From Escherichia coli (GTDB lineage Bacteria > Pseudomonadota > Gammaproteobacteria > Enterobacterales > Enterobacteriaceae), in the NCBI RefSeq assembly GCF_003334305.1, contig NZ_QOWS01000001.1: a stretch of 64,000 nucleotides of DNA. One strand, 5' to 3'. Below, in pieces: positions 9,001 to 12,000 of the stretch. Position 1 is the first letter of the stretch; every line of letters starts with the position of its first letter. The position numbers were made by a program.

Positions 9001-12000
9001 GGTATCCAGGCCACTCATACCTTTCATATTGAGATCCAGCAAGATCACGTCGATATCCAGTCTATTCGCCAGATCGATCGCGCTCGCGCCGTCGCCCGCT
9101 TCGGCGACCACTTCAAAGCCAGGATCAAGCTCCAGTAACTGACGAACACCGCGTCGCATAAGTGGATGATCATCCACAATCATCACCTGAAAAGGCGTTG
9201 CTTCAGGCATAGTAGTCTCCTGAGGTTTTATTAGAATCATTATGTTTGAGCGTAGCGTTGGTAACGCTACCAGGCGCGTGAATGTTACCCCATTTTATGT
9301 ATGGACATGTAGTGAAAACTACAACCTTGTCGTTCGCTTTGGCATCATTTTCATTATAAAGACGGAATTTTGCATCAGCTTCTCATCAAGAAAAACAACT
9401 AAAAAATCAATCACAATACTTGTGCATTTCTTTAAACAGTTTTTAAAAACTGACTCCGGGTATGGAGCTATGGGTATTTTCCGTACCCAATGCTTTTAAC
9501 AGCAATTAATTTCATAGGATGAAAGCTCAATGCATCAATCTGGTTCTGTTTCTCTTTGTCGTTCCGCAATATCTGTTCTGGTGGCTACAGCGTTATATTC
9601 ACCCATAGCATTGGCATCAACAGTTGAGTATGGTGAGACAGTTGATGGTGTTGTCCTGGAAAAAGATATCCAGCTGGTTTATGGGACCGCCAATAATACG
9701 AAAATCAATCCTGGCGGAGAACAGCATATAAAAGAATTTGGTGTAAGTAATAATACTGAAATTAACGGAGGGTATCAGTACATTGAAATGAATGGCGCCG
9801 CAGAATACTCAGTATTAAATGACGGTTATCAAATTGTTCAAATGGGTGGCGCGGCAAACCAGACTACGCTCAATAATGGTGTGCTACAGGTTTATGGCGC
9901 AGCGAATGATACCACGATTAAAGGCGGGCGCTTAATCGTTGAAAAAGATGGGGGGGCCGTCTTTGTCGCTATCGAAAAGGGAGGACTACTGGAGGTTAAA
10001 GAGGGGGGATTAGCGATTGCGGTAGATCAGAAAGCAGGCGGTGCTATTAAAACAACCACGCGGGCCATGGAGGTATTCGGAACAAACCGTCTCGGTCAGT
10101 TCGATATCAAGAATGGTATTGCTAATAATATGTTGTTGGAAAACGGCGGAAGTTTGCGAGTTGAAGAAAATGACTTCGCTTATAATACCACTGTAGATAG
10201 TGGCGGCTTACTGGAGGTTATGGATGGCGGGACTGTAACTGGCGTTGATAAAAAAGCAGGCGGAAAATTAATTGTCTCAACGAATGCGCTGGAAGTGAGT
10301 GGTCCAAACAGTAAAGGCCAATTTAGTATAAAAGATGGTGTGTCAAAAAATTATGAACTGGATGATGGTTCCGGGCTCATTGTTATGGAGGACACGCAGG
10401 CCATTGATACTATCCTTGATGAGCATGCCACTATGCAATCGCTGGGAAAGGATACTGGTACGAAAGTGCAGGCAAATGCGGTATATGATCTCGGTCGATC
10501 AGATCAGAATGGAAGTATCACGTATTCCTCAAAAGCCATTTCTGAAAATATGGTTATCAACAATGGCCGCGCTAACGTCTGGGCTGGCACAATGGTTAAC
10601 GTTTCAGTCAGAGGGAATGATGGCATTCTTGAGGTCATGAAGCCGCAAATAAATTATGCACCCGCAATGTTGGTGGGTAAGGTAGTGGTTTCTGAGGGCG
10701 CTTCTTTTAGAACGCATGGTGCCGTGGATACCAGCAAAGCGGACGTTTCGCTCGAAAATAGCGTATGGACCATCATTGCCGATATCACTACGACGAACCA
10801 AAACACCCTCCTCAACTTAGCCAACCTTGCGATGTCTGACGCAAATGTGATTATGATGGATGAGCCAGTGACTCGTTCATCAGTGACGGCAAGTGCGGAA
10901 AATTTCATTACGTTGACCACCAATACCCTGTCGGGAAACGGCAATTTTTATATGCGTACCGATATGGCTAATCATCAGAGCGATCAGCTCAACGTCACCG
11001 GTCAGGCAACAGGTGATTTCAAAATATTCGTGACGGACACCGGTGCCAGCCCGGCAGCAGGAGATAGCCTTACACTGGTAACAACGGGCGGCGGTGATGC
11101 TGCATTTACGTTGGGCAATGCCGGAGGCGTTGTTGATATCGGTACGTATGAATATACCTTGCTGGATAATGGCAACCATAGCTGGAGTTTGGCAGAGAAT
11201 CGCGCGCAAATTACCCCTTCAACCACTGATGTGCTGAATATGGCGGCAGCACAACCGCTGGTATTTGATGCAGAACTGGACACCGTGCGTGAGCGTCTTG
11301 GTAGCGTAAAAGGCGTTAATTACGATACGGCGATGTGGAGTTCGGCAATTAACACCCGCAACAACGTGACCACTGATGCGGGCGCTGGCTTTGAGCAAAC
11401 ATTGACCGGGCTGACGCTCGGTATCGATAGCCGTTTCTCCCGTGAAGAAACCAGCACAATTCGCGGCTTGTTCTTTGGTTACTCTCATTCTGATATTGGT
11501 TTTGATCGCGGCGGCAAAGGCAATGTCGATAGCTATACCCTGGGGGCTTATGCCGGTTGGGAGCATCAGAACGGTGCCTATGTTGATGGAGTGGTGAAAG
11601 TTGACCGTTTTGCCAACACCATCCATTGCAAGATGAGTAATGGGGCAACAGCGTTTGGCGATTACAATAGTAACGGCGCGGGTGCTCATGTCGAGAGCGG
11701 GTTCCGTTGGGTTGACGGATTGTGGAGTGTTAGACCCTATCTGGCCTTTACCGGCTTTACCACAGATGGTCAGGACTACACGTTATCAAACGGCATGCGC
11801 GCGGATGTGGGAAATACCCGGATATTACGCGCTGAAGCGGGAACGGCGGTAAGCTATCACATGGACCTGCAAAACGGTACGACGCTGGAACCCTGACTGA
11901 AAGCCGCCGTGCGTCAGGAATACGCCGATTCTAACCAGGTGAAAGTTAATGACGATGGCAAATTTAATAATGATGTGGCTGGAACCCGTGGCGTTTATCA

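What the first reader, a model, noticed from the sequence alone, without database searches (positions are those of the whole stretch)
10000..10420. Tandem ~75-aa repeat inside the yejO passenger domain
Two consecutive segments share an obvious motif series: ...VDQKAGGAIKTTTRAMEVFGTNRLGQFDIKNGIANNMLLENGGSLRVEE... and ...VDKKAGGKLIVSTNALEVSGPNSKGQFSIKDGVSKNYELDDGSGLIVME.... This fits beta-helical repeat units of autotransporter adhesins, and such repeats can expand or contract by recombination.
Basis: seen in the sequence. Interest (0 to 1): 0.2.

Follow-up and report, generated by a model that had tools for sequence, protein, structure and literature searches.

The report
Duplicated hairpin module in YejO autotransporter
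The repeat is real: the surface protein gene yejO of E. coli carries an old, in-frame duplication of a 74-amino-acid building block. This block matches the "elbow" of the well-studied adhesin Antigen 43, and about 5% of sequenced E. coli genomes have lost exactly one copy; otherwise this is ordinary, known autotransporter architecture.

Summary
In YejO (window 9530-12121, + strand), aa 132-243 align without gaps to aa 206-317 at an offset of 74 aa. Identity is 40% and the BLOSUM62 score is 202; the best score in 60 shuffles was 55. The quoted peptides lie at 10022-10168 and 10244-10390.

The duplication is old. Nucleotide identity is 50%, third codon positions match at 32%, and the longest shared run is 12 nt. 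Tandem Repeats Finder sees nothing.

The "expand or contract" idea is partly right:
- 272 of 5,426 complete E. coli genomes carry a precise 222-nt deletion of one unit, with its breakpoint inside an 11-nt microhomology (AAAGCAGGCGG).
- The eight alleles I sampled share one 5' haplotype, which suggests a single event.
- No expansion allele was found.

This points to a rare microhomology deletion, not a recombination-prone repeat. Separately, the window's yejO is a pseudogene (in-frame TGA at codon 789). Interest is low.

The parts
9530..12121 (+). yejO reading frame (864 codons including an internal TGA): classical autotransporter, a pseudogene in this window
   Evidence: ORF list and translation. 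It is 100% identical to strain H15 yejO, annotated 'autotransporter YejO, internal stop'. Pfam finds AIDA, Pertactin and Autotransporter domains; TIGR01414 scores 373 bits.
9530..9619 (+). Probable signal peptide (aa 1-30, MHQSGSVSLCRSAISVLVATALYSPIALAS)
   Evidence: Read from the sequence. No signal-peptide predictor was run.
9923..10480 (+). Whole repeated stretch (aa 132-317), about 2.5 units of 74 aa
   Evidence: The offset-74 diagonal scores 202 against a shuffle maximum of 55, with 40% aa and 50% nt identity.
10022..10243 (+).
   Evidence: It is 52% identical to the corresponding Ag43 unit.
10244..10465 (+). Unit 2 (aa 239-312): VDKKAGG... to ...KDTGTK
   Evidence: It is 39% identical to unit 1.
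10070..10111 (+). Predicted beta-hairpin 1 (aa 181-194, EVFGTN-RL-GQFDIK)
   Evidence: AlphaFold2 strands at model residues 151-156 and 159-164, with block-mean pLDDT 98. It aligns to Ag43 'TVIGTNRLGNFTVE'.
10292..10333 (+). Predicted beta-hairpin 2 (aa 255-268, EVSGPN-SK-GQFSIK), 74 aa after hairpin 1
   Evidence: AlphaFold2 strands at model residues 225-230 and 233-238. It aligns to Ag43 'TVEGTNASGKFSI'.
10031..10041 (+). Microhomology copy A (AAAGCAGGCGG, codons for K-A-G-G), left breakpoint zone of the natural 222-nt deletion
   Evidence: Three-way in-register comparison of the window's copy A, copy B and the AMA1167 allele.
10253..10263 (+). Microhomology copy B (AAAGCAGGCGG), right breakpoint zone
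10042..10263 (+). The 222 nt absent from the deletion alleles (equivalently 10031-10252); it removes hairpin 1 and the three rungs that follow
   Evidence: blastn of the window gene against AMA1167. The junction 40-mer occurs in 272 of 5,426 genomes. The segment itself is present in 4,006 of 5,426 genomes.
10820..11194 (+). Pertactin-type (autochaperone) region, aa 431-555
   Evidence: Pfam PF03212, E 3.2e-45.
11333..12052 (+). Autotransporter beta-barrel domain, aa 602-841, interrupted by the stop codon
   Evidence: Pfam PF03797, E 2.1e-45.
11894..11896 (+). In-frame TGA at codon 789 (TGG, Trp, in intact alleles); it cuts off the last 74 residues of the protein (aa 790-863), within and beyond the barrel domain
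   Evidence: Translation. Intact alleles read LEPWLKAAV. A 55-mer centred on the TGA is found in 1,166 of 5,426 genomes.

Best explanation
The repeat is an ancient in-frame tandem duplication of a structural module of the YejO passenger beta-helix. Each 74-aa module is a beta-hairpin (..EV.G.N..GQF.IK.G) followed by about three ordinary 18-19-aa rungs. The two hairpins with the three rungs between them correspond to the 'elbow joint' of Antigen 43, which gives that adhesin its L shape. In YejO the duplication most likely builds a comparable bend in the surface-exposed passenger.

The two copies have diverged too far at DNA level to act as a dynamic repeat. Within E. coli the only copy-number change seen is one precise loss of one unit (hairpin 1 plus the three elbow rungs). 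It occurred through an 11-nt microhomology and then spread by descent and allelic recombination.

Shown: the repeat, its age, its homology to the Ag43 hairpin region, the deletion allele and its frequency.
Inferred: the bend in YejO, any functional effect of the deletion, and slippage as the deletion mechanism.
For: Repeat and its age:
- Offset-74 diagonal scores 202 against a shuffle maximum of 55.
- 40% aa identity, 50% nt identity, 32% at third codon positions, longest exact run 12 nt.
- No DNA tandem repeat detected.

Module identity:
- Two Pfam AIDA hits at aa 184-245 and 257-315.
- TIGR04415 strand-loop-strand repeat, 66 bits against a cut-off of 30.
- One collinear HMMER domain aligns YejO aa 151-272 to Ag43-EDL933 (7KOH) residues 244-362, 73 bits, i-E 1.6e-19, covering both hairpins and the LLENGG rung.

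Structure:
- AlphaFold2 model with pLDDT 84.6 and pTM 0.82 has two hairpins 74 residues apart; the repeat stretch (aa 132-317) has block-mean pLDDT 90-98.

Module in relatives:
- A profile of the unit finds 410 representative proteins (E <= 1e-3), with full units spaced 74-78, 93-97, 113-116 or 130-135 aa, that is, one hairpin unit plus a variable number of rungs.

Population:
- 4,006 genomes carry both units and 272 carry the exact deletion junction.
- No genome has the reciprocal duplication junction or the alternative deletion junction.
- The breakpoint lies inside AAAGCAGGCGG.
- Eight sampled deletion alleles have identical 5' parts; seven of eight also have identical 3' parts; the eighth is a recombinant.
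Against: - The L-shaped bend is only predicted for YejO. Foldseek TM-scores to Ag43 are 0.35-0.45. AlphaFold2 was probably trained on the first Ag43 structure (4KH3, released 2014), so the model is not independent evidence.
- YejO unit 2 is closer to YejO unit 1 (39%) than to Ag43 unit 2 (32%). Whether the duplication predates the YejO/Ag43 split is therefore unresolved.
- No function has been shown for YejO. It is often a pseudogene, including in this window.
- The single-origin claim rests on 8 of 272 alleles.
Confidence: 0.8

Rival explanations
1. There is no higher-order repeat. The similarity only reflects the generic 18-19-aa rung periodicity of AIDA-type beta-helices.
For: An 18-aa periodicity is present upstream: offset 18 scores 107 over aa 62-170. 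The Pfam AIDA model also gives several weak extra hits.
Against: Offset 74 scores 202. The other rung-multiple offsets in the same region (19, 55, 92, 93) score 42-54. The hairpin motif G.N..GQF.IK.G occurs only twice, 74 aa apart.
Confidence: 0.03
2. This is a recombination-prone repeat whose copy number changes often between strains, giving adhesin length or antigenic variation.
For: A precise one-unit deletion allele exists in 272 of 5,426 genomes. Relatives carry from 2 to at least 8 full units.
Against: - 50% nt identity and at most 12 identical bases in a row. From established knowledge, this is far below the roughly 20-30 bp that RecA-dependent recombination needs in E. coli.
- Tandem Repeats Finder finds nothing.
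- Only two states occur in 5,426 genomes, with no expansion junction and no alternative deletion junction.
- 4,006 + 272 = 4,278 of the 4,282 genomes that hold most of the gene are accounted for.
- All eight sampled deletion alleles share one 5' haplotype.
Confidence: 0.07
3. The shorter allele is ancestral, and the window's two-unit form arose by a recent duplication.
For: The two forms differ by exactly one unit.
Against: A recent duplication would give near-identical copies, but these are 50% identical with saturated third positions. The hybrid unit of the short allele matches the left part of copy A and the right part of copy B almost base for base. Ag43 also has two hairpins at the same spacing.
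Confidence: 0.02
4. The 222-nt deletion is an assembly artefact caused by collapse of a repeat.
For: Repeat collapse is a common assembly error.
Against: The copies are only 50% identical, so assemblers would not merge them. The junction occurs in 272 complete genomes from many laboratories and hosts. In five of eight sampled alleles the reading frame is intact and encodes the same protein, WP_000554212.1.
Confidence: 0.01

Closest known systems
Antigen 43 (Ag43/Flu/Cah) of E. coli, specifically its elbow-joint subdomain (PDB 4KH3, 7KO9, 7KOB, 7KOH)
   Different: YejO scores 128.7 bits against the Ag43 equivalog model, whose cut-off is 1200, so it is not an Ag43 orthologue. Its stem has about 8 rungs before hairpin 1, counted from the sequence (strand pattern), against 13 turns in the Ag43 long arm (PMC8993888). 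Unit 2 is only 32% identical to Ag43 unit 2. Self-association has not been shown for YejO.
AIDA-I and TibA (self-associating autotransporters with imperfect 19-aa repeats)
   Same: The rung type is the same: Pfam AIDA PF16168, the TIGR04415 strand-loop-strand repeat, and matches to the TibA structure 4Q1Q.
   Different: YejO scores 73.5 bits against the AIDA-I model, cut-off 1200. I did not look for an adjacent heptosyltransferase gene; the flanking genes are narP and tRNA-Pro/yejM.
Multi-hairpin autotransporters and other beta-helical proteins found with the unit profile (for example P0121, P0138, P0149)
   Same: They contain the same hairpin-plus-rungs module, recognised by a 74-position profile.
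   Different: They hold 4 to 8 or more full units, often spaced at 93-97 or 113-116 aa rather than 74. Their organisms and functions are unknown, because the library carries no names.

Membership tests
Classical (type Va) autotransporter | C-terminal outer-membrane beta-barrel translocator domain | tested here: met
   PF03797, E 2.1e-45, aa 602-841. TIGR01414, 373 bits against a cut-off of 16. In this window a TGA at codon 789 truncates the domain, so the gene belongs to the family but its product is probably not functional.
Classical (type Va) autotransporter | Beta-helical passenger with a pertactin-type autochaperone region | tested here: met
Classical (type Va) autotransporter | N-terminal Sec signal peptide | not tested
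   aa 1-30 look like a signal peptide ending in ALA-S. No predictor was available.
AIDA-I-type / self-associating autotransporters (SAAT) | Imperfect ~19-aa strand-loop-strand rungs (Pfam AIDA, TIGR04415) | tested here: met
   PF16168, E 7.7e-24 and 3e-21. TIGR04415, 66.1 bits against a cut-off of 30.
AIDA-I-type / self-associating autotransporters (SAAT) | Self-association that causes cell aggregation | not testable with these tools
   I found no experimental work on YejO function. K-12 yejO is an IS5-inactivated pseudogene used as a neutral control (PMC11005336).
Ag43/Cah family (NF033177 equivalog) | Whole-protein score above the curated cut-off | tested here: not met
   128.7 bits against a cut-off of 1200. 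YejO is a paralogue-level relative, not an Ag43.
Ag43-type elbow joint | Two beta-hairpins flanking three beta-helix rungs | tested here: met
   Collinear alignment to 7KOH residues 244-362. The AlphaFold2 model has hairpins at aa 181-194 and 255-268, with six short strands (about three rungs' worth) between them. This rests on prediction and homology, not on a solved YejO structure.
Ag43-type elbow joint | Conserved first rung VVLE[N/S]GGRLDVL and an elbow of about 85 aa | tested here: inconclusive
   YejO has NMLLENGGSLRVEE, matching the core LE-N-GG-x-L-x-V but not the whole motif (PMC6668479). From the start of hairpin 1 to the end of hairpin 2 is 88 aa.
Ag43-type elbow joint | L-shaped bend of the passenger | tested here: inconclusive
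Copy-number-variable (contingency-type) tandem DNA repeat | High nucleotide identity between adjacent units | tested here: not met
   50% nt identity, longest exact run 12 nt, no Tandem Repeats Finder hit.
Copy-number-variable (contingency-type) tandem DNA repeat | Many copy-number states among strains | tested here: not met
   Only two states were found: two units in 4,006 genomes and one unit fewer in 272. No expansion junction and no alternative deletion junction were found.

The most novel reading that the evidence does not exclude
The hairpin-plus-rungs module may be a general bend element of beta-helical autotransporters, with its copy number and spacing setting the overall shape of the passenger. 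On this reading, the natural 222-nt deletion (5% of complete E. coli genomes, mostly an intact reading frame in the sample) removes one of YejO's two elbow hairpins and so changes its bend and adhesive behaviour. Relatives with 6-8 modules at regular 94-aa spacing would then form curved or superhelical passengers unlike any solved autotransporter.
Probability: 0.25. Interest if true: 0.45.

Novelty: new member of a known kind. Interest (0 to 1): 0.22.

Why it matters
Practical value is small. yejO is an uncharacterised autotransporter that is often inactivated: it is a pseudogene in K-12, in this window, and in UPEC and ST131 lineages.

Two details may interest autotransporter structural biologists:
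- YejO carries the same double-hairpin elbow that is required for Ag43-mediated cell clumping. The Ag43 authors state that it is not known how widespread the L-shape is (PMC8993888). YejO and the many profile hits suggest the hairpin module is common.
- E. coli offers a natural allele pair, with two hairpins or one, on otherwise 97-98% identical genes. This is a ready-made test of what the elbow contributes.

For genome annotation, the result shows that this repeat is not a hypervariable locus.

Tried and rejected
- DNA-level repeat finders: Tandem Repeats Finder gave 0 rows. The repeat finder gave only short chance-like matches and missed the 222-nt pair.
- The search for homologous proteins with the passenger returned only near-identical E. 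coli YejO fragments and pseudogene products among the 120 listed, so it said nothing about copy number in other taxa. The profile search of representatives did that job instead.
- I tried to date the duplication relative to the YejO/Ag43 split by comparing units. Unit 1 looks orthologous (52%), but unit 2 does not resolve.
- No genome holds the reciprocal duplication junction or a deletion junction through the second microhomology, TACTGGAGGTTA.
- One literature search failed for lack of capacity. Another, on slipped-strand repeats in autotransporters, returned nothing relevant to E. coli YejO.
- The promoter and terminator scan of the region showed nothing noteworthy.

Full report
LOCUS. The finding lies in a 2,592-nt reading frame at window 9530-12121 (+). 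It sits between narP (8563-9240, -) and tRNA-Pro(GGG) (12225-12301, -) followed by yejM. The gene is yejO. A megablast search of 5,426 complete E. coli genomes finds it in 5,422 of them, always on the chromosome. Strain H15 is 100% identical, and its copy is annotated 'autotransporter YejO; internal stop'. Pfam gives the usual type Va layout: AIDA repeats in the N-terminal passenger, Pertactin at aa 431-555, and the autotransporter beta-barrel at aa 602-841. NCBIfam agrees: TIGR01414 scores 373 bits and the TIGR04415 strand-loop-strand repeat scores 66 bits.

IS THE REPEAT REAL? Yes.
- The two quoted peptides are at aa 165-213 (10022-10168) and aa 239-287 (10244-10390), exactly 74 aa apart.
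- A self-diagonal scan puts offset 74 far above all others: ungapped BLOSUM62 score 202 over aa 132-243 against 206-317. The best diagonal in 60 shuffles averaged 40.4, with a maximum of 55.
- The second-best diagonal is offset 18 (score 107, aa 62-170). This is the ordinary rung period of the beta-helix.
- Other multiples of the rung period in the repeat region score only 42-54, so the 74-aa period is a real higher-order repeat.
- The repeated stretch is 9923-10480, about 2.5 units, which is wider than the reported interval.

AGE. Identity is 40% at protein level and 50% at nucleotide level. By codon position it is 53%, 65% and 32%, and the longest exact in-register run is 12 nt. Tandem Repeats Finder reports nothing. 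The duplication is therefore ancient, and the sequence is not a tandem repeat in the DNA sense.

WHAT THE UNIT IS. The passenger has clear sequence homologues with solved structures.
- The best matches are Antigen 43 variants (7KOH, 7KO9, 4KH3, 7KOB) and TibA.
- One collinear HMMER domain (73 bits, i-E 1.6e-19) aligns YejO aa 151-272 to Ag43-EDL933 residues 244-362.
- Within it, YejO 'TTTRAMEVFGTNRLGQFDIKNG' pairs with Ag43 'TSTAATVIGTNRLGNFTVENG', 'NMLLENGGSLRVEE' with 'GVVLESGGRLDVLE', and 'STNALEVSGPNSKGQFSIKDG' with 'DSGATVEGTNASGKFSIDG'.
- It also defines an 85-aa elbow-joint subdomain whose first rung is the conserved VVLE[N/S]GGRLDVL. Altering that subdomain changed the angle and abolished aggregation (PMC6668479, citing the original Ag43 structure paper).

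STRUCTURE PREDICTION.
- An AlphaFold2 model of the window's passenger (aa 31-560, 23-sequence alignment) has mean pLDDT 84.6 and pTM 0.82.
- It shows two antiparallel hairpins at protein aa 181-186/189-194 and 255-260/263-268. They are exactly 74 residues apart, with six short strands (about three rungs' worth) between them, and the repeat stretch (aa 132-317) has block-mean pLDDT of 90-98.
- A 374-residue rigid superposition must span the stem, the elbow and part of the lower arm, so the predicted bend resembles that of Ag43.
- Two caveats apply. Foldseek TM-scores are only 0.35-0.45. AlphaFold2 was probably trained on the first Ag43 structure, so the model is not independent evidence.
- In summary, each 74-aa unit is one hairpin plus about three rungs, and the tandem pair is the YejO counterpart of the Ag43 elbow.

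THE MODULE ELSEWHERE.
- A 74-position profile built from the units (A1) was searched against 1.84 billion representative proteins. It finds 410 proteins at E <= 1e-3 and 116 at E <= 1e-10.
- In 15 of the top hits, full-length matches recur at spacings of 74-78, 93-97, 113-116 or 130-135 aa, with 2 to 8 full copies per protein. Each is one hairpin unit followed by a variable number of roughly 19-aa rungs.
- Copy number of this module does vary, but over deep evolutionary time.
- I could not tell whether YejO's own duplication predates its split from Ag43. Unit 1 is 52% identical to Ag43 unit 1. Unit 2 is closer to YejO unit 1 (39%) than to Ag43 unit 2 (32%).

VARIATION AMONG E. COLI STRAINS. 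In the spread listing of yejO hits, two records matched over a span 222 nt shorter than the query.
- In strain AMA1167 the gene is an intact 789-codon ORF (WP_000554212.1). It lacks exactly 222 nt and reads ...AVDQKAGG|KLIVSTNALEV..., the head of unit 1 fused to the body of unit 2.
- A base-by-base comparison places the switch from copy A to copy B inside an 11-nt sequence shared by both copies, AAAGCAGGCGG (window 10031-10041 and 10253-10263).
- I designed a 40-mer across the junction so that full-length alleles cannot supply a 28-nt seed. It hits 272 of 5,426 genomes, all at 100% coverage.
- The deleted 222-nt segment is present in 4,006 genomes. Together these account for 4,278 of the 4,282 genomes that hold at least 80% of the gene.
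- The reciprocal duplication junction and a deletion junction through the other shared run (TACTGGAGGTTA, 9987-9998 and 10209-10220) occur in no genome.
- Eight sampled deletion alleles have identical first 500 nt, and seven also have identical 3' parts. The eighth (strain C8) has a 3' part that is a mosaic and carries the same stop codon as the window. This indicates allelic recombination after the deletion.
- The deleted form must be the derived one. Its hybrid unit matches copy A on the left and copy B on the right almost base for base, whereas the two copies are only 50% identical to each other.
- The simplest account is one deletion event through a short direct repeat, followed by spread. 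With only 11 shared bases, RecA-independent slippage or illegitimate recombination is more likely than homologous recombination. This last step is inferred from general knowledge of E. coli recombination and was not tested.

CONSEQUENCE OF THE DELETION. It removes hairpin 1 and the three elbow rungs and leaves one hairpin.
- An AlphaFold2 model of this allele (pLDDT 79.2) keeps a single confident hairpin.
- The model has a low-confidence stretch just after the junction, so I do not claim a changed bend. That remains a hypothesis.

STATE OF THE GENE.
- The window's yejO has an in-frame TGA at codon 789 (11894-11896), where intact alleles have TGG (Trp). This cuts off the last 74 residues of the protein (aa 790-863), including the end of the barrel domain.
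- A 55-mer centred on this base finds the same stop in 1,166 of 5,426 genomes.
- K-12 derivatives carry an IS5 insertion (PMC11005336).
- B2-type strains such as NC101 keep only a remnant that lacks cds 473-1476 and 1931-2562, including both repeat units. This agrees with reports that yejO is truncated in UPEC (Wells et al. 2010, as cited in PMC3426408) and missing from ST131 (PMC5654935).
- Intact two-unit alleles exist in O157:H7 and several other lineages.

VERDICT. The structural interpretation (beta-helix repeat units of an autotransporter) is correct and can be sharpened to 'duplicated hairpin module equivalent to the Ag43 elbow'. The dynamic interpretation is only weakly true: one rare, microhomology-mediated contraction allele and no evidence of ongoing expansion or contraction. 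This is known architecture in a known gene, so interest is low. The two modest additions are the elbow homology and the natural one-hairpin allele.

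Noticed in passing
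window 11894-11896: In-frame TGA (Trp789 to stop) truncates the YejO beta-barrel, so the window's yejO is a pseudogene. The same stop is present in 1,166 of 5,426 complete E. coli genomes.
   Followed up: yes
L003 1501-2427 (strain NC101; window equivalents 9530-10001, 11006-11459, 12092 onward): B2-type strains keep only a yejO remnant in which cds 473-1476 and 1931-2562 are deleted, removing both repeat units. About 1,140 of the 5,422 genomes with a match cover less than 80% of the gene.
   Followed up: partly
L005 1814-4183 (strain C8): A deletion allele whose 5' 500 nt are identical to the other deletion alleles. Its 3' part differs from them at 15 sites and carries the window-type stop (aa 715 = 789 minus 74). 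It looks like a mosaic made by recombination between yejO alleles.
   Followed up: partly
L006 and L010, 787-2116 (strains PT109 and N1193): An IS2 element (IS3 family) is inserted in the deletion allele at about cds 304-309, and ATTGTT is found on both sides of the insertion. This is a secondary inactivation of an otherwise intact allele.
   Followed up: no
L011 (O111:H- strain 110512), cds position 2270: A 1-nt deletion causes a frameshift in addition to the stop codon, an example of continuing decay of the pseudogene.
   Followed up: no
protein P0123 (350 aa): A database protein that is YejO with Gly, Glu and Asp systematically replaced by Ser/Lys, Lys and Asn (for example TVKYSKTVNSVVLKKNIQ...). 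The pattern would fit G-to-A changes throughout the underlying DNA, which suggests a sequencing or sample artefact rather than a real variant.
   Followed up: no
protein P0121 (1,534 aa autotransporter): It has eight full hairpin units, seven of them in a regular array with 93-95-aa spacing. Its organism and the shape of such a multi-hairpin passenger are unknown.
   Followed up: partly
window 10335-10640, 10654-11689 and other ORFs overlapping yejO: Several ORFs of 93-156 aa overlap yejO on both strands. They lie inside a conserved coding gene and look like chance ORFs.
   Followed up: no
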